Below are positions 2,971 through 56,382 of a stretch of 64,000 bases of DNA, one piece after another. The position numbers and the translations under genes are program-made. The notes beneath the pieces are model-generated. The model saw only the letters and a program-made list of their open reading frames with translations, was not told where the DNA came from and made no database searches. Within the stretch, counting starts at the first letter, position 1. Each line of letters starts with the position of its first letter. Source of the DNA: Parcubacteria group bacterium Greene0416_39 (GTDB lineage Bacteria > Patescibacteriota > Minisyncoccia > Minisyncoccales > UBA10102); contig VMEU01000003.1 of the NCBI GenBank assembly GCA_007375675.1, forward strand, positions 8,692-72,691, in the 5' to 3' direction.

Positions 2971-4015
2971 CAAAATTCTTTCGTATCTTGGCCAAGACAT
3001 TGCAATTGACCTTGGCACTGCAAACTCTCTTGTATACCTAAGAGGCCGCGGCATTGTCATTCAAGAGCCCTCGGTTGTTGCGGTGAATCAAAAAACCGGC
3101 CAGATTTTAGCTATTGGCCAGGAAGCAAAGAAAATGGTAGGCAGAACCCCTGCCCATATTGTGGCTACACGCCCCTTGAGAAAAGGAGTCATCTCTGACT
3201 TTGAAGTAACCGAGCAAATGCTCCGCTATTTCATACACAAGGTACAAAAGAAAAAGCTGCCTGTGAGCCCTGGGCCCAGAGTAATTGTTGGCATTCCCTT
3301 TGGAGTTACCGAAGTTGAGAAAAAAGCAGTGCGTGACGCGTCGCTCAACGCAGGAGCGCGGGAAGTCTATCTTATTGAGGAACCCATGGCAGCTGCCATT
3401 GGGGCGCGGCTTGCAGTGCAAGAGGCAGGAGGCAACTTTATTGTTGACATCGGAGGAGGAACCACCGAGGTTGCGGTGATATCTCTAGGAGGAATTGTGT
3501 TTGCAAAATCTTTGCGCATTGCAGGAGACAAGCTCAACGAAGATATCATTCACTACGCCCAAGAGCAGTTTAAGCTTCTCATTGGCGAGCGCACGGCAGA
3601 AGCAGTCAAGATAGGCATTGGGTCTGCGTTTCCCCTGAAAGAGAAAAAAGAAATGCCGCTGCGCGGGAGAAACGTGGTGACAGGCCTGCCTGAAGAAATC
3701 ATGGTGTCAGATGAAGACATCAGAAGAGCAATGGAACGTTCGGTGCGCCAGATTGTCAACGAAGTGAAGGCGGCTGTGGAAGCAACTCCGCCTGAGCTTT
3801 TGGCAGACATTATGGCAAGTGGTTTATATCTTTCAGGAGGAGGAGCACTGCTCCGCGGGCTTGATACCCTTATAGCAAAAGAAACAAAGATTCCCACGAA
3901 AGTGGTAGAAGACCCGCTCACTGCTGTGGCTCGCGGCGCAGGCCTTGTGTTGGAGAATTTAGATGAACTGGAAGAAGTATTGGTCGAGACAGAAGAACTA
4001 GAGCCACCTAGGTAA
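2954..4015 (+). CDS. mreB: rod shape-determining protein MreB
   Basis: DIAIDLGTANSLVYLRGRGIVIQEPSVVAV and DIGGGTTEVAVISLGG actin-like motifs. Confidence 0.93.
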   Translation: MRSLFSKILSYLGQDIAIDLGTANSLVYLRGRGIVIQEPSVVAVNQKTGQILAIGQEAKKMVGRTPAHIVATRPLRKGVISDFEVTEQMLRYFIHKVQKKKLPVSPGPRVIVGIPFGVTEVEKKAVRDASLNAGAREVYLIEEPMAAAIGARLAVQEAGGNFIVDIGGGTTEVAVISLGGIVFAKSLRIAGDKLNEDIIHYAQEQFKLLIGERTAEAVKIGIGSAFPLKEKKEMPLRGRNVVTGLPEEIMVSDEDIRRAMERSVRQIVNEVKAAVEATPPELLADIMASGLYLSGGGALLRGLDTLIAKETKIPTKVVEDPLTAVARGAGLVLENLDELEEVLVETEELEPPR

Positions 4016-4017
4016 AG

Positions 4018-4085
4018 CTACGAAATACGAAAAAATACGAATATACGAAAATTTCGTACATTCGTACAAAATTCGTAATTCGTAG
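4018..4085. repeat. AT-rich imperfect palindrome (TTCGTA variant of the intergenic cassette family)
   Basis: CTACGAAATACGAAAAAATACGAATATACGAAAAT / ATTTCGTACATTCGTACAAAATTCGTAATTCGTAG. It fills the mreB-gatC spacer. Confidence 0.7.
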
Positions 4086-4092
4086 AGAATTC

Positions 4093-4380
4093 ATGATTAC
4101 CAAAGAAGAGGTACAACATATTGCAAAACTTGCGAGGATAGAGCTTGCCGACGAAGAACTGAAGAAATTCCAAAAAGATTTCTCTCAGATTCTGGAGTTT
4201 TTTGAGACGCTCAAGGACGTTGACGTGTCAGACGAGAAATCCACGGCCTATTCCATCGCTCTTAACAACGTGACCAGAGATGACATATCAAGAAGAGAAA
4301 AACCGGAAGTAGTTGAAAAACTTATTCGTATGACGCCTCAAATAGAAGGAAATTATGTGAAAGTGCCCAAAGTATTATGA
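4093..4380 (+). CDS. gatC: Asp/Glu-tRNA amidotransferase subunit C
   Basis: MITKEEVQHIAKLARIELADEELKKFQKDFSQILEFFETLKDVDV. Overlaps gatA by 4 nt. Confidence 0.9.
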   Translation: MITKEEVQHIAKLARIELADEELKKFQKDFSQILEFFETLKDVDVSDEKSTAYSIALNNVTRDDISRREKPEVVEKLIRMTPQIEGNYVKVPKVL

Positions 4381-5804
4381 CCATAGAAGAAATCAGAACA
4401 GGTCTTTTGAAAAAAGAATTTTCCGCCGTGGAGCTTGCAGAGCAGTATTTGGCGCGCATTCGGGAGAAAGACCAGGAACTCCACGCGTTTCTCAACGTGA
4501 CAGAAAAACTTGCCCTTGCACAAGCGCGTGAAATTGATGAGAAAATAGCCCGCCTGCCGGCGAGGCAGGCAACGGGAGAGGAATTACCTCCTTTAGCTGG
4601 AGTTCCGTGTTCTGTGAAAGATGCAATTTTAGTAGAGGGAGTTTTGTGCACGGCAGGTTCTCGTATGCTTGAAAACTATATTGCTCCGTATGACGCAACC
4701 GTGGTACAAAAGATAAAGAAGGCAGGAGCTCTTATTGTAGGCAAGACCAATATGGATGAGTTTGGCATGGGAAGTTCCACAGAGAATTCTGCGTTTGGGC
4801 CAACCAAGAATCCCTATGACCCAACTCGAGTGGCAGGCGGAAGTTCAGGAGGGTCTGCAGCGAGCGTAGCAACGGGGGAGTGCGCTGTTTCCCTGGGAGA
4901 GGATACCGGAGGGTCTATTCGTCTTCCCGCCTCTTTTTGCGGAGTTGTGGGGTTAAAACCTACCTACGGAGCAGTTTCTCGTTACGGGATTATTGCAATT
5001 GCTTCTTCTTTGGATCAGGTAGGGCCCATGGCAAAGACGGTAGAGGACTGCGAAACATTGTTCCATGTGATTCGCGGGAAAGACCCGATGGATTCTACGT
5101 CAGTGGAATCAAAAATTTCTAATGACGAATTTCTAATTTCTAAACTTCGGATCGGGGTTCCAAAAGAATACTTTGGAGAGGGATTAGATCCGCAGGTTGA
5201 GAAGGTTATCCGAGGAGCTATTGAAAAACTTGAACATGCTGGAGCAAAGATTATAGAAGTGAGCCTGCCGCATTGCTCGTACGCGTTGGCTGACTACTAT
5301 ATTATAAATATGTCTGAGATTTCTGCAAACCTTGCGCGGTATGACGGCATACGATACGGAGCCTCTGTTTCTGGGGGAAATCTTTTGGCAACGTATATGC
5401 GCTCGCGTGGAGAAAAACTTGGAGCTGAAGTGAAAAGGAGAATCATGCTGGGCACATATGCCTTGTCTGCAGGTTACTATGAGCAGTACTATGTAAAGGC
5501 TCAAAAGGTGCGAGCACTTTTACGAAAGGACTTTGACCAAGTATTTGAAAAAGTTGATGTGATCGCAGGTCCGGTGAGCCCGTTTCTTCCCTTCAAAATC
5601 GGGGAAAAGGTGGGAAACCCGCTCGCAATGTACCTTGTTGATATGTACACAGTAACCCTTAACTTGGCAGGCCTTCCAGGGTTATCTGTGCCCGCTGGAT
5701 CGGTACAAGGTCTCCCGGTAGGGCTTCAACTGATTGCCCCTGCATTTCAAGAGCAGACTCTTTTTGAAACAGGAAAAGCGTTTGAAAAAATTCGAACATT
5801 CTAA
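4377..5804 (+). CDS. gatA: Asp/Glu-tRNA amidotransferase subunit A
   Basis: Amidase signature GGSSGGSAASVA. Full-length GatA-like. Confidence 0.95.
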   Translation: MTIEEIRTGLLKKEFSAVELAEQYLARIREKDQELHAFLNVTEKLALAQAREIDEKIARLPARQATGEELPPLAGVPCSVKDAILVEGVLCTAGSRMLENYIAPYDATVVQKIKKAGALIVGKTNMDEFGMGSSTENSAFGPTKNPYDPTRVAGGSSGGSAASVATGECAVSLGEDTGGSIRLPASFCGVVGLKPTYGAVSRYGIIAIASSLDQVGPMAKTVEDCETLFHVIRGKDPMDSTSVESKISNDEFLISKLRIGVPKEYFGEGLDPQVEKVIRGAIEKLEHAGAKIIEVSLPHCSYALADYYIINMSEISANLARYDGIRYGASVSGGNLLATYMRSRGEKLGAEVKRRIMLGTYALSAGYYEQYYVKAQKVRALLRKDFDQVFEKVDVIAGPVSPFLPFKIGEKVGNPLAMYLVDMYTVTLNLAGLPGLSVPAGSVQGLPVGLQLIAPAFQEQTLFETGKAFEKIRTF

Positions 5805-5821
5805 CATTCAAACATTATTAC

Positions 5822-6340
5822 ATGCCAGACATTTTTTACCTTTTTTCTCTGCTCGTATCTCCTGCCGTGCAAGATCACCTTTTAATCCCAAAGATCACCC
5901 TCGGCGCGCTAAGCGCAGTGCTTCTTGGGTTTATCGTATGGGCATTCTTTAATACGTCGTGGTTTCAGTATGCGTTTTTTACTGATCTGCGGGAGTTTCT
6001 TACGTTTCGTTCCTATGGGCTTCGCAAAATGATCGATAGGTGGCAGAAGACACTTGCAAGGTTGGAAACCGCCCAGGAAGCTGAATACAAACTCGCGGTT
6101 ATTGAAGCAGACGCCATGCTTGACGACGCCTTAAAAAGAATGGCCTTCCCCGGAGCAACGGTGGACGAGCGCTTGCAGAATCTTAGCGCAGCCATTGTTG
6201 CTAATGTGGAGGAAGTACAAAAAGCGCATGCCTTGCGAAATAACGTTGTGCATGACCCAAACTTTCGTTTGTCTTTAGACGAGGCAAGAAAAACCCTCTC
6301 TACATTTGAGAAAGCATTCCAGAGCCTTGATTTGATTTAG
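5822..6340 (+). CDS. hypothetical membrane protein
   Basis: 172-aa ORF with two N-terminal hydrophobic helices. No family recognised. Confidence 0.55.
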   Translation: MPDIFYLFSLLVSPAVQDHLLIPKITLGALSAVLLGFIVWAFFNTSWFQYAFFTDLREFLTFRSYGLRKMIDRWQKTLARLETAQEAEYKLAVIEADAMLDDALKRMAFPGATVDERLQNLSAAIVANVEEVQKAHALRNNVVHDPNFRLSLDEARKTLSTFEKAFQSLDLI

Positions 6341-6344
6341 TTTG

Positions 6345-6416
6345 TTGCGGGGGCCGGATTTGCACCGGCGATCTCAAGGTTATGGGCCTCGTATGCTACT
6401 GCTGCACCACCCCGCA
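6345..6416 (-). tRNA. tRNA with CAU anticodon (Met or Ile2), non-canonical loops
   Basis: Reverse complement folds as TGCGGGG TG GTGC AGCAGTA GCAT A CGAGG CCCATAA CCTTG AGATC GCCGG TGCAAAT CCGGC CCCCGCA A. It has C33 instead of U33 and a TGC instead of TTC T-loop. Confidence 0.65.
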
Positions 6417-6493
6417 TGAGTATTCTATCTCAAGCATAAAGGATTGTAAAGTCCTTGATGTAAGACTTATTTTCCTGTATATTCAACCTGTGT

Positions 6494-6570
6494 GCCGGCG
6501 TAGCTCAGTGGTTTAGAGCAGGGCCTTCATAAGGCCAAGGTCGGAGGTTCGATCCCTCCCGTCGGCACCA
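6494..6570 (+). tRNA. tRNA with CAU anticodon (Met elongator or Ile2), CCA encoded
   Basis: GCCGGCG TA GCTC AGTGGTTTA GAGC A GGGCC TTCATAA GGCCA AGGTC GGAGG TTCGATC CCTCC CGTCGGC A CCA. Confidence 0.85.
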
Positions 6571-6581
6571 AGAGAAATGAT

Positions 6582-7252
6582 ATGCCAATCCCTCGAACAA
6601 AAGATGAGACTTTCTTTAAGAGATGGACGCCAGAAATGGCTTACGTTCTGGGATTTATTACTGCGGATGGAGCTCTAATCAAAAATAAAAGAGGCGCAAA
6701 GTTTATAGAAATCCAATCGATAGATAAAGAATTGTTTATAAGATCCGAGAGGCACTACGATCAAATCTGGCGGTTGGAGAGTATCAACCAAAGCATCCGA
6801 ATCAAAATAAAAGATACCGACTCCAGATTGGTTCTAAACGGATGTATGCAGATTTATTGAAGCTTGGCCTTGTTGCTAGAAAAGCTTATCGAGTTCGAAT
6901 TCCAACAATTCCTTTTAATTATATAAGAGATTTTCTCCGTGGTTATTTTGATGGAGACGGAGGAGTATCCCTCTACCTATCTCATAAGAAAGATAGAAAA
7001 ACTCCTACAAGGGTACTATTGACCACATTCACAAGTTGTAGTAAGGGAATGCTTGACGATGTTGCTATAGTACTTTCTAAGGGAGGAGGTACTCGTTTGA
7101 AAATTTCTCAGAAGAAATGGGGTGACAATGCGTTTGAATTACGGTATAGTACTGTTGATAGTAGAAAGATCTATTACTTCCTTTATAGGAACCAGGATCA
7201 GTTATTTCTTAGAAGGAAAAAGATAGTTTTTGAGAAATATTTGCGGGCGTAG
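6582..7252 (+). pseudogene. free-standing double-motif LAGLIDADG homing endonuclease, -1 frameshifted
   Basis: Motif 1 is YVLGFITADGAL (ORF 6582..6860). Motif 2 is FLRGYFDGDGGV (ORF 6842..7252). The second frame is already open from 6728 and reads IVYKIREALRSNLAVGEYQ...YRLQIGSKRMYADLLKLGL, so the frames join near 6728-6735. Confidence 0.8.
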
Positions 7253-7317
7253 AGGAGTCTGGAGTCCTCGGATCCCTGTCACGGATCAAATCGTGGGTTC
7301 AAATCCCATCGCCCGCG
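7243..7317 (+). tRNA. tRNA-Asp (GUC)
   Basis: GCGGGCG TA GAGG AGTCTGGAGT CCTC G GATCC CTGTCAC GGATC AAATC GTGGG TTCAAAT CCCAT CGCCCGC G. Its first 10 nt overlap the LAGLIDADG stop codon. Confidence 0.9.
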
Positions 7318-7350
7318 CAGAAGATTTGGAATACAAGAATGAGAGGTGAT

Positions 7351-7545
7351 ATGCAAATTATTCGCTGGTTCTTTCTAGGTATTGTGGTGGATGTAGTGTT
7401 GGTGGAGTATATAGGAGTATATCTCTGCATAAGAATTCCAGTCAGCATTGTCACAAAAAAGGATCCTAGTTCTTTTGAATTCCGATTTGCGCCTTGGATT
7501 GATCGTCTGCTTGGGTATCCAAGACCTCATGGCGGTTTTCGCTAA
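7351..7545 (+). CDS. hypothetical small protein (weak call)
   Basis: 64-aa ORF with a hydrophobic N-terminus, followed by a good terminator. No RBS or family support. Confidence 0.25.
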   Translation: MQIIRWFFLGIVVDVVLVEYIGVYLCIRIPVSIVTKKDPSSFEFRFAPWIDRLLGYPRPHGGFR

Positions 7546-7561
7546 CCATCTTGGGACAAGT

Positions 7562-7593
7562 CCGCTAGCCCCCCGTGCTAGCGGCTTTTATTT
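7562..7593 (+). terminator. rho-independent terminator
   Basis: CCGCTAGC (7562-7569) / GCTAGCGG (7577-7584), then CTTTTATTT. Confidence 0.6.
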
Positions 7594-7620
7594 GACAAAA
7601 CCCAAGAGTTTCGATAAAAG
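7592..7620 (+). promoter_or_regulatory. candidate promoter TTGACA-17-TAAAAG
   Basis: TTGACA at 7592-7597. The -10 is weak. Confidence 0.4.
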
Positions 7621-7674
7621 AGTAGTAGCACCCTAACAACCGAAGGGTGAGTTTATACGAGGAAGGAGAGTGAT

Positions 7675-8397
7675 ATGCTCCAAGTTCCATCGGGCCGTGT
7701 CTTTGATGCATACGACGAACAAATGCTGAGGAAGTTTGTGCAGTATGGCTTTGTTCGCTGGAGCGAGGAACCTATAACTTTGAAGTCCGGAGTGCAAAGC
7801 CATGTCTATGTGTTCGGGAGGGAGGACCTTACCGACCACCCGGACCTGGAATGGCTTGTGGGGCGGAAGATTGCTGTCCTTGTGGCGGAGAATGCCCAGG
7901 AACGGTCAGACCTCAAACAGCAGTGCCTGATCGGCGTGCCGACAGCTGGCACGGCACTTGCCCAAGCAGGAAGCATGGTAAATTATATTCAGAAACGCCA
8001 CCTGGGAGGACCTTCTGCACTACGGGTTATCCATCGCATCATGCGAGAAGACCTGAAGATCCATGGGGCGCATCCTGACTGGGTGAACGGGAAGGCGCAG
8101 CCGGAGCTTCATACCTACTGGACAGTAGATAACGTAGTTACGGATGGCGGGTCCAAGCTGGAGACCCAGAATCGACTGCAGGAAAGCGGTTATCCCGTAG
8201 AGGATATGCCCTCTCTCGTGTTCGTGGACAGGCAGCAAGGCGGCATTGTCAACATGGAAAAAGCCGGATTCCGCAACATCGTTGTCGCCTATAACCTCCT
8301 AGATATCACCTTTGCCCTTGGTAAACTCGAGCTCTGGCCAAGGGACGCGGTGCAGGCCGTAGGGGAGGAAATCGAGGCACATCAGCTCATTTCATAG
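7675..8397 (+). CDS. type I phosphoribosyltransferase, OPRT(PyrE)-like
   Basis: ITLKSGVQSHVYVFG (OPRT-like N-terminal motif) and PRPP loop TVDNVVTDGGSKLE. SD GGAAGGAG. GC-richer than its neighbours. Confidence 0.6.
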   Translation: MLQVPSGRVFDAYDEQMLRKFVQYGFVRWSEEPITLKSGVQSHVYVFGREDLTDHPDLEWLVGRKIAVLVAENAQERSDLKQQCLIGVPTAGTALAQAGSMVNYIQKRHLGGPSALRVIHRIMREDLKIHGAHPDWVNGKAQPELHTYWTVDNVVTDGGSKLETQNRLQESGYPVEDMPSLVFVDRQQGGIVNMEKAGFRNIVVAYNLLDITFALGKLELWPRDAVQAVGEEIEAHQLIS

Positions 8398-8426
8398 AGC
8401 AATAGAGTATGGGGAATCGTGCTCAG

Positions 8427-8460
8427 GCCGCCAGACACCTGTCCTGGCGGCTTTTTGTTT
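8427..8460 (+). terminator. rho-independent terminator
   Basis: GCCGCCAG / CTGGCGGC followed by TTTTTGTTTT. Confidence 0.7.
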
Positions 8461-8623
8461 TCGTAAACTATCTTGTTATCATTGCCATAGCAGAATTAAC
8501 AAGATATCTCACAATTGTTGCTCGAGCATAAATAAAGAGAATTGGGGATATTTACCCCTGTGGAAAAGATGTCTCCAAAGGAGTTGATTTCCCCTTTATT
8601 TTAAGGTAAAATAGATAGGGCGT

Positions 8624-9751
8624 ATGAACATTGAGATCAGCTTAAAAGAAGAGCAGGAACTAAGAAAATTGCTCCAAAAAAGAGATGATCCGGAAGCCAA
8701 AAGAATGCTTCGGTTTTTGAATATGCCGGATTTATCGCGTACGCAAGGCAGTCCGATTGCGGCAATCATAGAACGGGTGAAAAAAGTGCCTGTGTTGAAA
8801 AACTTTGACGATATTACTATCCCCGAGATTGTTTCAACCCATGTTCTTTTCGATCTCTTCAATATGCCTCCCGGTCATCCGGCTCGCAGCACATCAGACT
8901 CTTATTATGTAGATGAGGGGCACATCCTGATAACCCACGACACCGTGATGTGGTATTTCTATCTGAACCACCCTGATATAAAGAAAAAGATCGAGCAGGG
9001 TGAAGACCTGGGGGTCATCTGCTACGCCAAAGTCTACCGCAAAGACGAAATAGACAGAGAGCACATGAACGTTTTCCATCAGTTTGGCGGACTGTATTTG
9101 GTGCGCGACGATAAAAAAACCTTGACCATTGAGGATTTGAAGAACGCCCTTACCGAGATAGCGCAGAGCATTTTTAACAAAGGCATAAAGATCCGCTTCA
9201 ACCCGGACAATTTTCCCTACACAGATCCCAGTTTAGAAATGGAGATTGAGATAAACGGTCAGTGGATCGAGATGCTAGGTTGTGGTATGGCCCGTAAAAG
9301 CGTTTTGGCCAATTTTGGTCTTACCGGATACCACGGCTGGGCGTTCGGCTTCGGGCTTGAACGCATGGCCATTGTCAGCATGCAGTTGCCTGATATTCGG
9401 CTGTTGTGGTCAGAGGATCCTCGGGTAAAAAAGCAGCTTACGCTAGACAATGTCTATATTCCAGTGAGCAAGTACCCTGCGATCACCCGGGACATATCTT
9501 TTGTCGTGGACAAAGATTTCGTGCCCAACAACTACTTTGACCTGATACGTGATATCGCAGGCGACCTGGCTGAGGAGGTTCAACTCATTGATACGTATGA
9601 AGACGCAGAGAAGTTTGGGTCTGGGGTAAGTTATACGTATCGAATAATATACCAAAGTACTGAAAAAACATTAACGAGTGCAGAGATTGACCTGCTCCAA
9701 GACCAACTATATAAACAGACAGCCAAACAATTTAGTGCTGTGTTTCGTTAA
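8624..9751 (+). CDS. pheS: phenylalanyl-tRNA synthetase, single-chain form (alpha-type catalytic core fused to FDX-ACB/B8-like anticodon-binding domain)
   Basis: GHPARSTSDSYY, VYRKDEIDREHMNVFHQFGG, FPYTDPSLEMEI, GWAFGFGLERMA. C-terminal SKYPAITRDISFVVDKD...YRIIYQSTEKTLTSAEID resembles the PheT C-terminal domain. gyrB starts 2 nt after the stop. Confidence 0.85.
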   Translation: MNIEISLKEEQELRKLLQKRDDPEAKRMLRFLNMPDLSRTQGSPIAAIIERVKKVPVLKNFDDITIPEIVSTHVLFDLFNMPPGHPARSTSDSYYVDEGHILITHDTVMWYFYLNHPDIKKKIEQGEDLGVICYAKVYRKDEIDREHMNVFHQFGGLYLVRDDKKTLTIEDLKNALTEIAQSIFNKGIKIRFNPDNFPYTDPSLEMEIEINGQWIEMLGCGMARKSVLANFGLTGYHGWAFGFGLERMAIVSMQLPDIRLLWSEDPRVKKQLTLDNVYIPVSKYPAITRDISFVVDKDFVPNNYFDLIRDIAGDLAEEVQLIDTYEDAEKFGSGVSYTYRIIYQSTEKTLTSAEIDLLQDQLYKQTAKQFSAVFR

Positions 9752-54165: not shown

Positions 54166-56382
54166 CTACTTCAGGTTTTTGCCGCTGTGGAACTGGCGGT
54201 GGACATCACGAAGCTGTTTTGAAGTCACGTGAGCGTATATTTGGGTTGTAGCTGGATTTTTATGCCCCAGGAATTCTTGGATTAACCGAAGGTCTACCCC
54301 CTGCGAGAGAAGGTCGGTGGCAAAGGAGTTATGGCTTATAAACCCATCAGTGATAAGGTTGCCATGCCATCTACTAATGCCAAAGTCATATACCGAATAA
54401 CGAGGCGAAGAAGAAACTTTCGTTTTTTCATGGAGCTTCAACCATTGAATGGTATCTGCATACGCAATCTTTTTTAACTGGGCCAAGTACTGGGAATTGT
54501 AGCCAGCGTCTTCTAGTTGCTGTACAATATGTTGCACAGTTTTGCGGCTTGGGTTGAGTTTTTCTATGTATCTGCCTATATCGTTGATGCTGTAGTTTCT
54601 CCGCAAGGCCTGGATCCACTGAATCTTTTTTCGTGTTGTATCCTTTCGTATGACTTCAAGGAGCGGTCCCACTGGTAGTTTCTGGCCCTGGAAATGTTTT
54701 TCTACGTTCAGAAAACGTCTTTTGAATGTTTTTATGTGTTCCAAAAATAGCTCCTGATCCGGTTTGTGGAGGATATGGAGCGTATAAAATTTGTGGGAGA
54801 ATAAACGCTTTTGAGGCAATATTACTGTTCTATTGCGCCAGTTGAGATGGGAGTCTATTCCAAACCTCAAGAGTCCCATTTGAACGTCTTTAAGGAGTTC
54901 TACGCTTGAAGAAAATATCCTTATATTGCCCGAGTTTCCTTCGGCATCGTAGAATCCTGCGAGAAACTCGGCTAGTTCGTTCAGTGGCGCAGAAAGCATT
55001 TCCTTGGGCATTCGTCGGCCATTAGCGCCTGGTTCAAAACCAATCTGGAGTAGAAACTCCACAAGCTCGGCGTTATAAACAGTAAGCTGCCAAGAGTTGC
55101 TGACTTTACTTTTTTTTAGGGTTGGGACGACATAGAACAATTCATTAATCCAATTCATATAACTCTTGAGCATCTCTTTGTTTTTGTCTGTAAGAAGAAC
55201 CGCGCGCCTAGCTCTACTTACCGTACCGTCTCCGTAGATATACCCAAGGATTCTTGCAAAACGGGGATGTACGAATGGCTTTCCTTGGATTGTTATCTTT
55301 TTCACTCCCATGACGTAGTCACCAATCTTTAGCTCCCTTGCTTGTTTTTCTTCTATGCCTTTTTTCCCTATCGTGAAAAGTCTGTGATTGGGGGAACAAA
55401 GAAGGTTATAGCCACCAGCCCATAAAGAAAGGAGAGGAGTAATATGGTAGCTTCGCTCTTTCAGAGTAAGATTTTGGAATTGAAAACCTGCCCATTCGAG
55501 TGCCTGAACTTCTGCGGACGTTTTAAAATATAAATCCCGTGCCGATACAATACCATCACGTAAAACTATTCGCGTGGTAGGGGAGAGGCAGTGGCGCAAC
55601 GTATGAGGAGTGGTAAAAGAGGGGACACCCGCACGGAGTGCGTATTGCTTCACGATATTCTCAATAGAACGGGCGGAGAGTCGTTTTGAGGCGTTTTTTG
55701 GCCCCCTGTAATTGATGAATAAGGGTTTTTCATCGTCTCTCCGGGTCTTAAGATATTCCTTGAGAGCGTTTACGGCACGCTCCGAAAAGTAGACTGGGCG
55801 AACTCGCCCACCCTTTCCGGTGATTACCACTTCAAGCTGCGTAGTATCGGAAGATATCTTGATCTGTTCTCGGTCAAGACTCACAAGTTCCGCCACCCGC
55901 AGGCCCGTAGAGAAGAAACTTTCGAGGATCGCACGATCCCGCAGTCCTGCATTTGTGGAAGAATTGGGTGCCGCGAGAAGTTTCTTGAGCTGTTCGAGAT
56001 TTAAAAACTTTACTTTGCGTTCTTCTTTTTCCCGGATAAGTTTTATTTTATCTGCTGGGAGAGAAAGAATGTTTCGTTCGGTAAAGAATGACAGCAGGGA
56101 TCTTACAGCTATAAGATAATAGTTCTGCGTAGAACGCTTCAGAGGTTCTTTAGTAGTCTTGTGGAGGGTTTGAGAAAGAAAGAGGCGATAGTCCCAGATG
56201 TGCTGGTCGTCAAGCTCGTGAGGTTTTAGGGATTGGAGGTTTTGTGAGGAAAACCAATCAGAAAATTTTTTTAAGAATCTTGCGTATGTTTCCTGGCTTT
56301 TGTATCCCAAACCTTTCTCAACGTCACAATATTCAAGAAAATCTTTTATATGTTCAGTAATGGTTTTTTTGCTTTTTTGCAT
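54166..56382 (-). CDS. Xer/phage-integrase-family tyrosine recombinase containing an intein
   Basis: Exteins are residues 1-264 and 686-738: SAM-like N-domain, STGLRVAELVSL, TPHTLRH | SFATDLLSQGVDLRLIQEFLGHKNPATTQIYAHV. Confidence 0.88.
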   Translation of the reverse strand: MQKSKKTITEHIKDFLEYCDVEKGLGYKSQETYARFLKKFSDWFSSQNLQSLKPHELDDQHIWDYRLFLSQTLHKTTKEPLKRSTQNYYLIAVRSLLSFFTERNILSLPADKIKLIREKEERKVKFLNLEQLKKLLAAPNSSTNAGLRDRAILESFFSTGLRVAELVSLDREQIKISSDTTQLEVVITGKGGRVRPVYFSERAVNALKEYLKTRRDDEKPLFINYRGPKNASKRLSARSIENIVKQYALRAGVPSFTTPHTLRHCLSPTTRIVLRDGIVSARDLYFKTSAEVQALEWAGFQFQNLTLKERSYHITPLLSLWAGGYNLLCSPNHRLFTIGKKGIEEKQARELKIGDYVMGVKKITIQGKPFVHPRFARILGYIYGDGTVSRARRAVLLTDKNKEMLKSYMNWINELFYVVPTLKKSKVSNSWQLTVYNAELVEFLLQIGFEPGANGRRMPKEMLSAPLNELAEFLAGFYDAEGNSGNIRIFSSSVELLKDVQMGLLRFGIDSHLNWRNRTVILPQKRLFSHKFYTLHILHKPDQELFLEHIKTFKRRFLNVEKHFQGQKLPVGPLLEVIRKDTTRKKIQWIQALRRNYSINDIGRYIEKLNPSRKTVQHIVQQLEDAGYNSQYLAQLKKIAYADTIQWLKLHEKTKVSSSPRYSVYDFGISRWHGNLITDGFISHNSFATDLLSQGVDLRLIQEFLGHKNPATTQIYAHVTSKQLRDVHRQFHSGKNLK
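54328..55590 (-). mobile_element. 421-aa intein with LAGLIDADG homing-endonuclease domain
   Basis: Cys1 codon TGC at 55590-55588 (CLSPTTRIVLRDG). CSPNHRLF block B. ILGYIYGDGTV and FLAGFYDAEGN. Terminal ..GFISHN (AAC at 54330-54328) followed by Ser+1. Confidence 0.85.

What the first reader, a model, noticed from the sequence alone, without database searches (positions are those of the whole stretch)
6345..7317. Free-standing, frameshifted LAGLIDADG homing-endonuclease gene wedged between two tRNA genes and overlapping tRNA-Asp
A double-motif LAGLIDADG gene starts 12 nt after the CCA end of a tRNA(CAU) gene. Its TAG stop (7250-7252) lies inside the acceptor stem of tRNA-Asp (7243-7317). Both flanking tRNAs are intact, so this is not an intron-encoded gene. 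LAGLIDADG genes in bacteria are usually inside introns or inteins.

The reading frame is broken. ORF 6582-6860 carries motif 1. The downstream frame is open from 6728 and reads IVYKIREALRS...YRLQIGSKRMYADLLKLGL...FLRGYFDGDGGV. That requires a -1 shift near GATAAAGAATTG (6723-6734).

The break could reflect recent decay, a sequencing error at the A-run, or programmed frameshifting.
Basis: partly seen in the sequence, partly recalled or inferred. Interest (0 to 1): 0.6.

Follow-up and report, generated by a model that had tools for sequence, protein, structure and literature searches.

The report
Decaying homing endonuclease beside tRNA-Asp
A broken copy of a selfish DNA-cutting-enzyme gene sits between two tRNA genes. 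It belongs to a large, apparently undescribed family that in ultra-small (CPR/Patescibacteria) bacteria always sits directly in front of the tRNA-Asp gene, moves between lineages together with that tRNA, and is often paired with a self-splicing intron inside it.

Summary
A two-motif LAGLIDADG_3 gene (6582-7252) fills the gap between tRNA(CAU) 6494-6570 and tRNA-Asp(GUC) 7243-7318. Its TAG stop is tRNA-Asp nucleotides 8-10. The frame is broken by a 1-nt deletion (GAA[A]TT, about 6729-6733).

The same broken sequence is in six assemblies. Three close homologues have the missing base. One of them carries a different 2-nt deletion. dN/dS is 0.16. The break is therefore recent decay, not an assembly error or programmed frameshifting.

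The arrangement is the rule for this clade. In 79 of 79 evaluable Patescibacteria relatives the gene lies directly 5' of tRNA-Asp, and in 57 of 71 it overlaps it. None of 80 phage relatives lies near a tRNA.

Syntenic empty sites exist, with tRNA-Met and tRNA-Asp 10-75 nt apart. One mosaic locus, and several pairs whose similarity ends at the tRNA-Asp 3' end, point to lateral transfer of a HEG + tRNA-Asp cassette.

In 29 of 79 loci the adjacent tRNA-Asp carries the 35/36 group I intron that a 2026 paper described as lacking a homing endonuclease.

Best reading: a degenerating free-standing homing endonuclease that works like phage T4 SegB or mobE. It is a new variant of a known kind. The cleavage target is untested.

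The parts
6344..6416 (-). tRNA(CAU) number 1. It is probably the initiator type, because relatives have the C1xA72 mismatch. It is inverted relative to L001, L003, L211 and L212.
   Evidence: ARAGORN. Rfam tRNA 56.7 bits. Comparison with relatives.
6455..6483 (+). Promoter-like site TTGATG-17-TATATT, 10 nt upstream of tRNA(CAU) number 2. It is the likely start of a tRNA-HEG-tRNA transcript. A mirror-image site at 6450-6422 (-) faces the minus-strand tRNA.
   Evidence: Consensus scan. The count is not significant on its own: 4 sites found against 2.5 expected. Function is inferred.
6494..6570 (+). tRNA(CAU) number 2, elongator type (G1-C72 pair), with CCA encoded. Whether it is Met or Ile2 is not resolved. 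It forms the left boundary of the insertion.
   Evidence: ARAGORN. Rfam 65.4 bits. 93% identical to the tRNA-Met at the empty site L212.
6582..6731 (+). HEG 5' segment in frame 0, residues 1-50. LAGLIDADG motif 1 lies at 6636-6677 and includes the catalytic Asp (ADG).
   Evidence: D29 is invariant in the 15-sequence alignment.
6726..6734 (+). Site of the 1-nt deletion (ancestral AAAGAAATT became AAAGAATT). It shifts reading from frame 0 to frame 2.
   Evidence: DNA alignment with L001, L002 and L003. The pairwise alignment has a single gap at column 148.
6731..7252 (+). HEG 3' segment in frame 2, residues 51-223. LAGLIDADG motif 2 lies at 6932-6967 (FDGDG). The annotated 136-aa ORF 6842-7252 is its tail.
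   Evidence: P0002 is 100% identical. D126 is invariant.
7243..7252 (+). 10-nt overlap between the HEG and tRNA-Asp. The stop codon TAG is tRNA U8-A9-G10.
   Evidence: The same 10-nt overlap occurs in L002, L003 and 37 of 71 family loci; 15 more overlap by 15 nt.
7243..7318 (+). tRNA-Asp(GUC), intronless, with an unusual D-arm (GAGGAGTCTGGAGTCCTC). It is the constant partner of this HEG family and is co-transferred with the HEG.
   Evidence: ARAGORN. Rfam 54.7 bits. 100% identical to the L001 tRNA-Asp but only 76% identical to the tRNA-Asp of the syntenic empty site L212.
7562..7593 (+). Terminator-like hairpin followed by a T-run. It may mark the end of the tRNA-HEG-tRNA transcription unit.
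   Evidence: Consensus scan. Function is inferred.

Best explanation
The feature is a recently inactivated copy of a free-standing, monomeric two-motif LAGLIDADG (LAGLIDADG_3, I-DmoI-like) homing-endonuclease gene. It is inserted between tRNA(CAU) and tRNA-Asp(GUC).

It belongs to a Patescibacteria-wide lineage of such genes that is always lodged directly 5' of the tRNA-Asp gene. The ORF usually runs into the tRNA and stops at the tRNA's own U8-A9-G10.

Shown:
- The gene family, the catalytic Asp residues, and a fixed position next to tRNA-Asp.
- Presence/absence polymorphism at a syntenic site.
- A 1-nt deletion that is reproducible across assemblies.
- Purifying selection until recently.
- Sequence similarity between distant hosts that is confined to HEG + tRNA-Asp.

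Inferred mechanism:
- An intact enzyme cuts HEG-less chromosomes in or next to the tRNA-Asp gene.
- Repair from a HEG-bearing donor copies the HEG and co-converts the neighbouring tRNA-Asp allele, including its 35/36 group I intron when present. This is intronless or 'trans' homing, as with phage T4 SegB and mobE.
- The gene has no promoter or leader of its own. It is probably transcribed as part of the tRNA precursor from the promoter-like site at 6455-6483.
- RNase P cleavage at the tRNA-Asp 5' end would remove the stop codon, so tRNA processing and HEG translation compete. That would keep expression low.

In this genome the element has passed from the fixed stage to the degeneration stage of the homing cycle.
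For: Family.
- Pfam PF14528 E=5.5e-14, two stretches.
- PDB profile hits to 2DCH ('putative homing endonuclease') at E=3e-6 and to an I-DmoI chimera.
- Both catalytic Asp residues are invariant.

The break is real and recent.
- The identical sequence 6344-7318 is in L004-L008, and L009 is an exact substring from 6587. These are two NCBI MAGs, one ENA assembly and three Logan runs.
- L001, L002 and L003 have the extra base. L001 has a separate 2-nt deletion.
- Window versus L001: dN/dS = 0.16, dS = 0.34.

Fixed position.
- Of the 80 best genome relatives, all 79 evaluable have tRNA-Asp(GTC) immediately downstream: 50 intronless and 29 with an intron. 44 have tRNA(CAU) within 400 nt upstream, and at least 10 of these lie 2-12 nt from the ATG.
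- The stop is TAG in 61 of 71 loci, and 57 of 71 ORFs overlap the tRNA.
- Control: none of 80 phage-contig relatives has a tRNA within 300 nt.

Insertion polymorphism.
- Syntenic empty sites: L212 (172-aa gene, tRNA-fMet, tRNA-Met, 10 nt, tRNA-Asp, pyrE-like gene, PheRS, GyrB) and L211 (75-nt spacer).
- About 12 further tRNA-Met / tRNA-Asp pairs 31-157 nt apart with no HEG.

Lateral transfer.
- The left flank of L001 matches the empty L212 (172-aa protein 85% aa, tRNA-fMet 97%). Its HEG (86% aa, 89% nt) and tRNA-Asp (75/75 nt) match the window.
- The window's 172-aa protein is only 46% identical to L001's, and the GatA C-terminus only 71%.
- L016 (Nomurabacteria) and L020 (Daviesbacteria) are 84% nt / 87% aa identical over HEG + intron-bearing tRNA-Asp. 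The similarity stops at the tRNA 3' end, and the flanks are unrelated.
- L048/L084, L078/L085 and L039/L042 show the same pattern.

Other decayed copies.
- L103 is split over three frames, and L024 has an internal stop.

Precedents.
- SegB sits in the T4 tRNA cluster, recognises a tRNA TpsiC motif and co-converts tRNA genes (PMC2330249).
- mobE mobilises a neighbouring intron in trans (PMC2790892).
Against: - No cleavage activity or target site has been shown for any member. The target could be the inter-tRNA spacer, the tRNA-Asp body or the intron insertion site. That remains inference.
- The L001 mosaic rests on one 1.9-kb single-sample Logan contig. A metagenomic assembly chimera cannot be excluded.
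- Taxon labels of the MAGs used for 'distant hosts' are the submitters' own.
- The 80 genome loci were chosen as the most similar to the query, so 79/79 describes this clade, not all LAGLIDADG_3 genes.
- Almost all relatives have intact ORFs (about 76 of 80). dN/dS is low, and the gene is widespread across the phylum. Those facts would also fit a host-beneficial, domesticated function.
- Window versus L003: the HEG (63% aa) is less conserved than GyrB (77%). Within part of the clade, inheritance may therefore be vertical.
- The transcription and RNase P arguments are deductions from layout alone. The promoter-like count is not above chance.
Confidence: 0.8

Rival explanations
1. This is a domesticated host gene rather than a selfish element. 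On this view the tRNA-Asp-linked LAGLIDADG protein serves the cell, for example as a maturase for the many CPR group I introns or as a tRNA-operon-associated nuclease or regulator. It would be inherited vertically, and this lineage is simply losing it.
For: - It is present across many Patescibacteria classes at one conserved position.
- ORFs are intact in about 76 of 80 relatives.
- dN/dS is 0.16.
- It is enriched next to intron-containing tRNA-Asp, 29 of 79.
- Window versus L003: the HEG is less conserved than GyrB.
Against: - Both catalytic Asp residues are strictly kept, unlike the domesticated WhiA.
- Syntenic relatives lack the gene altogether (L211, L212 and about 12 metagenome loci).
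- Independent frameshifts occur in the window, L001, L024 and L103.
- HEG + tRNA-Asp similarity greatly exceeds flank similarity in the window/L001 comparison, and flank similarity is undetectable for the L016/L020 pair.
- Intron-positive loci are scattered over the HEG tree.
Confidence: 0.1
2. The frameshift is a sequencing or assembly error, and the gene is intact in the organism.
For: The missing base lies in an A-rich stretch (AAAGAA[A]TT). The rest of the ORF looks fully functional.
Against: - The same sequence occurs in six assemblies made by different pipelines from at least three sequencing runs.
- The run is only 2-3 A's long and so is not error-prone. That the underlying reads are Illumina is my assumption.
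- The closest relative also carries an independent frameshift.
Confidence: 0.04
3. Programmed -1 ribosomal frameshifting produces the full-length enzyme from the broken gene.
For: A -1 shift near 6728-6734 would restore the full protein. Frame 0 stays open for 43 more codons, so a shift is not forced by a nearby stop.
Against: - There is no X XXY YYZ slippery heptamer at the site.
- No homologue among L001-L003 or the 80 genome loci needs a shift there.
- A single-base deletion relative to all relatives is the simpler explanation.
Confidence: 0.02
4. The ORF is really intron- or intein-encoded and an exon was mis-called.
For: LAGLIDADG genes are classically found in introns and inteins. In 29 of 79 relatives a group I intron lies only about 25 nt downstream, inside tRNA-Asp.
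Against: - Both flanking tRNAs are complete and score well.
- Rfam finds no group I or group II intron in 5500-8500, even at E<=1.
- Pfam reports no intein-splicing (Intein_splicing) domain and there is no host protein.
- In relatives with an intron, the ORF lies wholly upstream of the 5' exon, outside the intron.
- The empty site L212 shows two intact tRNAs 10 nt apart.
Confidence: 0.01

Closest known systems
Phage T4 SegB (free-standing GIY-YIG homing endonuclease in the T4 tRNA gene cluster; PMC2330249)
   Same: - It is a free-standing endonuclease gene embedded among tRNA genes.
- It is absent from related genomes that keep the tRNA region.
- It spreads together with the flanking tRNA genes by co-conversion.
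- SegB recognises a conserved tRNA-gene motif.
   Different: - SegB belongs to a different nuclease family (GIY-YIG, not LAGLIDADG).
- Its host is a phage, not a cellular genome.
- Here the partner is one specific tRNA (Asp), and the ORF physically overlaps it.
- Activity and target are untested here.
Trans or collaborative homing: T4 mobE with the I-TevIII intron (PMC2790892), and cyanophage F-CphI with the psbA intron (PMC6083498)
   Same: - A free-standing HEG lies next to a gene that carries a group I intron without a working HEG of its own.
- In 29 of 79 relatives the adjacent tRNA-Asp has an intron too short (about 200-270 nt) to encode one.
- The intron is strongly enriched next to the HEG.
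   Different: - The window's own tRNA-Asp is intronless.
- 50 of 79 family loci are intronless, so the HEG does not depend on the intron.
- The nuclease families differ (HNH, EndoVII-like).
- Cleavage at the intron insertion site is untested.
Group I introns at position 35/36 of Patescibacteria tRNA-Asp and tRNA-Asn (Nakagawa et al. 2026, PMC13011429)
   Same: Same phylum, same tRNA and same insertion point: the 5' exon ends ...CCUGU, after U35. RF00028 hits for 12 of the introns checked.
   Different: That study looked for HEGs only inside introns. It concluded that most tRNA introns lack HEGs and are poorly mobile. The LAGLIDADG gene described here lies just outside, 5' of the tRNA, and is not mentioned there.
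LAGLIDADG endonucleases in CPR rRNA insertion sequences (PMC11270868), and the archaeal rRNA-intron enzymes I-DmoI and 2DCH ('putative homing endonuclease'; I believe I-Tsp061I)
   Same: LAGLIDADG fold and catalytic motifs. Same phylum for the rRNA insertion-sequence enzymes. The nearest solved structures are 2DCH and an I-DmoI chimera.
   Different: - Those enzymes are encoded inside rRNA introns or insertions.
- In CPR they are mostly single-domain LAGLIDADG_1 or _2, and LAGLIDADG_3 was reported only within 16S insertions.
- This gene has two motifs, is free-standing and is tRNA-linked.
WhiA (domesticated bacterial LAGLIDADG protein)
   Same: A LAGLIDADG scaffold encoded as an ordinary chromosomal gene. 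One relative is auto-annotated as WhiA, and some carry weak PF14527 hits.
   Different: From my own knowledge, WhiA has lost the catalytic acidic residues and has a C-terminal HTH domain. This family keeps both Asp residues, has no HTH and is about 220 aa long.

Membership tests
LAGLIDADG endonuclease (Pfam LAGLIDADG_3, monomeric two-motif type) | Two LAGLIDADG motifs or domains in one chain, with a significant profile match | tested here: met
   PF14528 at E=5.5e-14 with two stretches on the reconstructed 223-aa protein. PDB profile hits to 2DCH and an I-DmoI chimera.
LAGLIDADG endonuclease (Pfam LAGLIDADG_3, monomeric two-motif type) | A catalytic acidic residue at the end of each motif | tested here: met
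   D29 (ITADG) and D126 (FDGDG) are present in the window and invariant in the 15-sequence alignment.
LAGLIDADG endonuclease (Pfam LAGLIDADG_3, monomeric two-motif type) | An uninterrupted ORF able to make the enzyme | tested here: not met
   A 1-nt deletion splits the gene into frame 0 (6582-6860) and frame 2 (6728-7252). The window copy is a pseudogene.
Homing endonuclease gene (mobile by homing) | Presence/absence polymorphism at the same site in otherwise syntenic genomes | tested here: met
   L211 and L212 keep the 172-aa gene, tRNA-fMet, tRNA-Met, tRNA-Asp and the pyrE-like gene but have no HEG. About 12 further empty tRNA-Met / tRNA-Asp pairs were found.
Homing endonuclease gene (mobile by homing) | Lateral transfer with co-conversion of flanking markers | tested here: met
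   L001 mosaic. In L016/L020, L048/L084 and L078/L085 the similarity is confined to HEG + tRNA-Asp. Caveats: L001 is a single short contig, and the hosts are MAGs.
Homing endonuclease gene (mobile by homing) | Site-specific cleavage of the HEG-less allele | not testable with these tools
   This needs protein expression and in-vitro cleavage of L212-type DNA.
Intron-encoded or intein-encoded HEG | The ORF lies inside a group I or II intron, or between intein splicing domains | tested here: not met
   No intron model hit in 5500-8500 at E<=1. Both tRNAs are intact. Pfam reports no Intein_splicing domain.
Programmed -1 ribosomal frameshift | A slippery heptamer, and conservation of the shift among homologues | tested here: not met
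   No X XXY YYZ motif at 6720-6740. All 3 close homologues, and the 80 distant ones at this point, read through in one frame.
Collaborative or trans homing (free-standing HEG plus an intron without its own HEG) | The HEG lies next to a gene carrying a group I intron that has no HEG of its own | tested here: not met
   The window's tRNA-Asp is intronless. The feature is met in 29 of 79 relatives. So the family shows it but this locus does not.
Collaborative or trans homing (free-standing HEG plus an intron without its own HEG) | Statistical linkage of the intron to the HEG | tested here: met
   In a tRNA-Asp sample not selected for the HEG, HEG x intron = [[3,2],[1,71]], Fisher p=5e-4. The CPR-like subset gives p=0.03. 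Comparing 29/79 with 3/95 in PMC13011429 gives p=6e-9, but the sampling frames differ.
Collaborative or trans homing (free-standing HEG plus an intron without its own HEG) | The enzyme cuts the intron-less allele at or near the intron insertion site | not testable with these tools
   This needs biochemistry. The fact that 50 of 79 HEG-positive loci are intronless argues that the intron is not the only route to immunity.

The most novel reading that the evidence does not exclude
The tRNA-Asp-linked LAGLIDADG genes form a phylum-wide, two-part mobile system in cellular organisms.

- The free-standing enzyme targets the body of the tRNA-Asp gene, somewhere between the D-arm and the anticodon loop.
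- Carriers are protected either by variant tRNA-Asp alleles or by the group I intron at 35/36. Candidate immunity alleles are the window's odd D-arm, the GGTTAGTAGC D-arm seen only in HEG-positive intronless loci, and the UUGUCAA loop of L002.
- The HEG would then be the missing motor that spreads the Patescibacteria tRNA-Asp introns that have no HEG of their own.
- It would also be a natural snapshot of the step just before an endonuclease gene moves into an intron.
- The stop codon borrowed from tRNA U8-A9-G10 would tie endonuclease expression to tRNA-precursor processing.
Probability: 0.3. Interest if true: 0.75.

Novelty: new variant of a known kind. Interest (0 to 1): 0.6.

Why it matters
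- It turns an odd-looking pseudogene into an entry point to a large, apparently unreported family. At least 559 loci were found among species-representative genomes and about 1,900 protein clusters. In every case examined the family is locked to a single tRNA gene.
- It gives a concrete, testable explanation for how the tRNA-Asp group I introns of Patescibacteria could be mobile. A 2026 survey judged them poorly mobile because they lack internal endonuclease genes.
- It suggests that an essential single-copy tRNA gene is repeatedly overwritten by lateral gene conversion in bacteria with minimal genomes.
- It offers naturally diverse monomeric LAGLIDADG enzymes whose target candidates can be guessed from empty-site sequences.
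- The layout also raises a question about expression: the ATG lies 2-12 nt after one tRNA, and the stop lies inside the next. How is a protein made from a tRNA precursor?

Tried and rejected
- Looked up the 92-aa frame-0 ORF by exact sequence to test reproducibility. It is not on record, because gene callers used an internal start (74 aa). I used P0002 and direct string matching instead.
- I expected the roughly 50%-identical relatives to sit in rRNA introns, as published for CPR. None of the 80 does; all are at tRNA-Asp.
- Plain ARAGORN missed about 30 tRNA-Asp genes. The intron option and manual 5'-exon inspection recovered them. My regular expression for 3' exons failed for most.
- Rfam at gathering threshold detects only 3 of the tRNA-Asp introns. 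The E-value mode recovers 9 more. L020, L042, L063 and L070 stay below E=0.01.
- The single metagenome scan with a tRNA-Asp 5'-exon pattern mostly returned non-CPR tRNA-Asp and tRNA-His. Only about 20 loci were CPR-like, so the unbiased 2x2 table is small.
- Looked for HEG remnants in long tRNA-Met / tRNA-Asp spacers. L105, L158 and L098 have none by HMM or blastn. L105 holds an unrelated small ORF.
- Tried to define exact insertion boundaries from L143 versus L078, which share an identical tRNA-Asp 5' exon. Their tRNA-Met genes differ too much to be a close pair.
- Tested whether exon sequence at the intron site differs between intron-positive and intron-negative HEG loci. No consistent difference was seen by eye.
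- Looked for a pyrF remnant downstream of tRNA-Asp. None found.
- Checked phage contigs as possible vectors of the cassette. Relatives there are only 29-41% identical and never next to a tRNA.
- Literature searches found no description of this arrangement.
- No structure prediction was run, because the fold assignment was not in doubt.
Full report
**1. What is in the window**

ARAGORN and Rfam agree on three tRNA genes: tRNA(CAU) 6344-6416 on the minus strand, tRNA(CAU) 6494-6570 (+) with an encoded CCA, and tRNA-Asp(GTC) 7243-7318 (+). Rfam finds nothing else in 5500-8500, even at E<=1. In particular it finds no group I or II intron.

Between the two plus-strand tRNAs, frame 0 is open from ATG 6582 to 6860. 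It encodes MPIPRTKDETFFKRWTPEMAYVLGFITADGAL..., which contains motif 1. Frame 2 is open from 6728 to TAG 7250-7252 and encodes ...FLRGYFDGDGGV...FEKYLRA, which contains motif 2. The joined 223-aa sequence matches Pfam LAGLIDADG_3 at E=5.5e-14 with two stretches. A family profile hits the solved structure 2DCH ('putative homing endonuclease') and an I-DmoI chimera.

The ATG lies 11 nt after the CCA. The TAG is tRNA-Asp nucleotides 8-10, so the overlap is 10 nt. The stop lies just beyond the acceptor stem rather than inside it. The region has 37.7% GC against 45.1% for the window.

**2. The frameshift**

The nearest relatives are L001 (86% aa), L002 (65%) and L003 (63%, a Wildermuthbacteria MAG). 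They have the same gene in the same place. In the DNA alignment the window lacks exactly one base, reading AAAG-AATT where L001 has AAAGAAATC. L002 and L003 are intact (206 and 205 aa as called; about 223 aa from the conserved MPI start).

L001 is intact at the window's site but lacks two bases further on, where the window reads GTTTGAAAATTTC. So the two closest copies carry independent lesions.

Window versus L001 gives dN/dS = 0.16 (dS 0.34, dN 0.056), with similar values before, between and after the two lesions. The gene was therefore under purifying selection for most of the time since the two copies diverged.

The sequence 6344-7318 is byte-identical in L004-L008, and L009 is an exact substring from 6587. 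These six come from two NCBI MAGs (GCA_007378945.1 'Parcubacteria group bacterium Greene0714_21' and GCA_007376645.1), one ENA assembly and three Logan assemblies of separate runs.

There is no slippery heptamer at the site, and no homologue needs a shift there. Recent decay is the supported reading. Assembly error and programmed frameshifting are not supported.

**3. The arrangement is the rule for a whole clade**

All of the best 80 are Patescibacteria MAGs (Wolfe-, Sungii-, Moran-, Nealson-, Kaiser-, Taylor-, Uhr-, Yonath-, Giovannoni-, Lipton-, Nomura-, Daviesbacteria and others), at 39-52% identity.

- Fifty have an intronless tRNA-Asp(GTC) on the same strand directly after the ORF.
- Twenty-nine have a tRNA-Asp interrupted after U35 by an intron, about 200-270 nt long where ARAGORN could measure it.
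- One locus is cut off by the contig end. That gives 79 of 79 evaluable.
- Of 71 loci with a clean measurement, 57 ORFs overlap the tRNA. Thirty-seven overlap by exactly 10 nt (stop = U8-A9-G10) and 15 by 15 nt. Sixty-one of 71 stops are TAG.
- Forty-four of 80 also have tRNA(CAU) within 400 nt upstream. In at least 10 the ATG lies only 2-12 nt after it.
- As a control, the 80 best relatives in viral contigs (29-41% identity) have no tRNA within 300 nt.

The link to tRNA-Asp is therefore specific to the Patescibacteria clade. It is not a by-product of the search or of the protein family as a whole.

**4. Evidence that it is an insertion and that it moves**

Orthologues of the downstream pyrE-like gene led to syntenic loci without the HEG.

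- L212: 173-aa gene, tRNA-fMet, tRNA-Met, 10 nt (GCAGATCTAT), tRNA-Asp, pyrE-like gene, single-chain PheRS, GyrB.
- L211: GatA, 172-aa gene, tRNA-fMet, tRNA-Met, 75 nt, tRNA-Asp, pyrF, pyrE-like gene, PheS.
- A metagenome sample of tRNA-Asp loci not chosen for the HEG added about 12 more tRNA-Met / tRNA-Asp pairs 31-157 nt apart with no HEG by tblastn or HMM.

By GyrB the window is about equally distant from L003 (HEG-positive, 77%) and L212 (HEG-negative, 76%). The distribution is therefore patchy.

L001 is a mosaic. Its 172-aa gene (85% aa) and tRNA-fMet (97%) match the empty L212. Its HEG (89% nt) and tRNA-Asp (75/75 nt) match the window. Yet the window's 172-aa protein is only 46% identical to L001's, and the GatA C-terminus is only 71%. 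The L212 tRNA-Asp is only 76% identical to L001's.

Independent pairs show the same pattern. L016 (Nomurabacteria) and L020 (Daviesbacteria) share 84% nt / 87% aa over the HEG plus intron-bearing tRNA-Asp. The similarity ends exactly at the tRNA 3' end, and the flanking genes are unrelated even by tblastx. L048/L084, L078/L085 and L039/L042 behave alike.

The mobile unit therefore looks like HEG + tRNA-Asp, with or without the intron, about 0.75-1.0 kb long.

Caveats: L001 is one short single-sample contig and could be chimeric, and the taxon labels are the submitters' own.

**5. The intron connection**

The interrupted tRNA-Asp genes have 5' exons ending ...CCTGT, followed by AGA..TGCAGC... 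That is an insertion between anticodon positions 35 and 36. RF00028 (group I intron) matches 12 of them: L049, L053 and L056 at gathering score, and L016, L022, L032, L039, L040, L051, L054, L057 and L064 at E<=4e-6.

This is the site described by Nakagawa et al. (PMC13011429). They found tRNA-Asp introns in 3 of 95 complete Patescibacteria genomes. They searched for endonuclease genes only inside introns and concluded that most tRNA introns lack them and transfer rarely.

Next to this HEG family the intron frequency is 29 of 79. Against 3 of 95 that gives Fisher p=6e-9, although the sampling frames differ. In my HEG-blind metagenome sample the table is [[3,2],[1,71]] (p=5e-4), or [[3,2],[1,14]] for CPR-like loci (p=0.03).

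Intron-bearing loci are scattered through the HEG tree among intronless sisters. The HEG does not need the intron, since 50 of 79 loci are intronless. The intron is rarely seen without the HEG; the one exception is L105. This asymmetry fits mobilisation of the intron in trans by co-conversion, because the intron lies only about 25 nt from the end of the HEG. It also fits the intron acting as one of several ways to make the tRNA-Asp allele immune. The window's own tRNA-Asp has no intron.

**6. How it most likely works**

Shown:
- The family, the catalytic residues and the position.
- The insertion polymorphism.
- Cassette-limited similarity between distant hosts.
- Recent inactivation in the window.

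Inferred:
- An intact enzyme makes a double-strand break in or beside tRNA-Asp of HEG-less chromosomes. CPR cells could take up donor DNA by natural transformation, but this is my own assumption.
- Repair then copies the HEG and overwrites the resident tRNA-Asp. This is analogous to T4 SegB, which sits in a tRNA cluster, recognises a tRNA TpsiC motif and carries neighbouring tRNA genes with it (PMC2330249). It is also analogous to mobE, which mobilises an adjacent intron (PMC2790892).
- The gene has no room for its own promoter or leader. A promoter-like TTGATG-17-TATATT site lies 10 nt before tRNA(CAU), and a terminator-like hairpin lies at 7562-7584 (counts not above chance). The HEG is therefore probably read from the tRNA precursor.
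- tRNA 3' processing would leave a nearly leaderless mRNA. RNase P cleavage at 7243 would remove the stop codon. tRNA maturation and HEG translation would then compete.

The window copy has passed from the fixed stage to the degeneration stage of the homing cycle. Other decayed copies are L001, L024 (internal stop) and L103 (fragments in three frames).

**7. Rivals**

- A domesticated host function is the only serious rival. Wide distribution, intact ORFs and low dN/dS would fit it. Retained catalytic residues, syntenic absences, repeated pseudogenisation and cassette-limited similarity argue against it.
- Sequencing error, programmed frameshifting and an intron or intein location were each tested and are not supported (sections 1 and 2).

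**8. Comparison with known systems, and novelty**

Free-standing homing endonucleases, their co-conversion of flanking markers and their cooperation with HEG-less introns are established in phages. LAGLIDADG enzymes in CPR rRNA insertions are also established (PMC11270868).

The following appear to be new, as far as five full-text searches show:
- a cellular, phylum-wide LAGLIDADG lineage tied to one tRNA gene;
- an ORF that usually ends in the tRNA's own U8-A9-G10;
- movement together with that tRNA;
- association with the 35/36 intron.

I rate this a new variant of a known kind. The window's copy itself is an ordinary decaying member. Interest is 0.6. Biochemical proof of the target is missing, and part of the transfer evidence rests on MAGs and short contigs.

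Noticed in passing
window 6344-6483: The first tRNA(CAU), probably the initiator, is on the minus strand here. In L001, L003, L211 and L212 it is on the plus strand. The inversion leaves two back-to-back promoter-like sites (6450-6422 minus, 6455-6483 plus) between the two tRNA(CAU) genes.
   Followed up: partly
window 54166-56382 (-): A 738-aa ORF is a tyrosine recombinase (Phage_integrase plus SAM-like N-terminal domain) interrupted by an intein. The intein has an Intein_splicing domain and a LAGLIDADG_3 endonuclease domain (Pfam E=1.4e-16). This is a second, unrelated LAGLIDADG element in the same window.
   Followed up: partly
window 8624-9751 (+): The only Phe-tRNA ligase gene here is a 375-aa single chain: a class II core plus an FDX-ACB anticodon-binding domain. 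Its best NCBIfam hits are pheS_mito and 'PheS-related mystery ligase SrmL', both below cut-off. L212 has the same form. Relatives L003, L210 and L211 have the usual PheS + PheT pair at this position.
   Followed up: partly
window 7319-7674: Relatives L210, L211 and L214 have pyrF (OMP decarboxylase) directly upstream of the pyrE-like gene; in L211 it lies between tRNA-Asp and that gene. The window has only a 68-aa ORF (7339-7545) with no family hit, followed by a terminator-like hairpin. tblastn finds no pyrF remnant anywhere in the window.
   Followed up: partly
L041, L047, L050, L055, L058, L060, L067, L068, L116 (tRNA-Asp D-arm); window 7252-7270; L002 735-745: A D-arm variant ending AGTAGC (typically GGTTAGTAGC), with one extra T compared with the usual GGTTAGAGC, occurs only in tRNA-Asp genes that are HEG-linked and intronless. 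It is seen in 0 of 29 HEG-positive intron-positive loci and in none of about 17 HEG-less CPR-like loci. The window and L001 allele has an unusual D-arm (GAGGAGTCTGGAGTCCTC). L002 has an unusual anticodon loop (TTGTCAA). These may be cleavage-immune alleles. The counts are not corrected for phylogeny.
   Followed up: partly
L105 (about 570 nt between tRNA-Met and tRNA-Asp): This is the only intron-containing tRNA-Asp found without the HEG. The spacer instead holds a roughly 60-aa ORF (MARRKIEDKNVRSL...) and several inverted repeats. No HEG remnant is detectable.
   Followed up: partly
L013 2234-3163, L037 2231-3160, L036 202-1212, L052 2222-3214: Some family members are 309-336 aa long, with an N-terminal extension of about 85 aa (for example MRRLHESPRIEV...) that the 220-aa majority lacks. 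Similar proteins of about 310 aa appear in the homologue list (P0013, P0023, P0029, P0047, P0053).
   Followed up: no
L032 4697-4907, L072 2022-2258, L054 1902-2160 (-), L042 5350-5607: The neighbourhoods of these loci hold further group I introns in other tRNA genes: tRNA(CAU), tRNA-Leu and tRNA-Thr. ARAGORN's intron mode also calls introns in tRNA-Thr, tRNA-Pro and tRNA-Leu in some metagenome loci. tRNA introns seem to cluster around this tRNA array.
   Followed up: no
L216-L295 (IMG/VR contigs): At least 559 relatives of this LAGLIDADG_3 protein occur in viral contigs. The best 80 (29-41% identity) are about 190-225 aa over the matched region. None of those 80 is next to a tRNA.
   Followed up: partly
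L005 (GCA_007378945.1) versus window 3842-6031: The NCBI MAG contig is identical to the window from about 6032 onward. Upstream it is out of register because of an indel, which splits its GatA and 172-aa gene calls (390 aa and 92 aa). Five other assemblies match the window exactly. This is either an assembly difference or strain variation.
   Followed up: no
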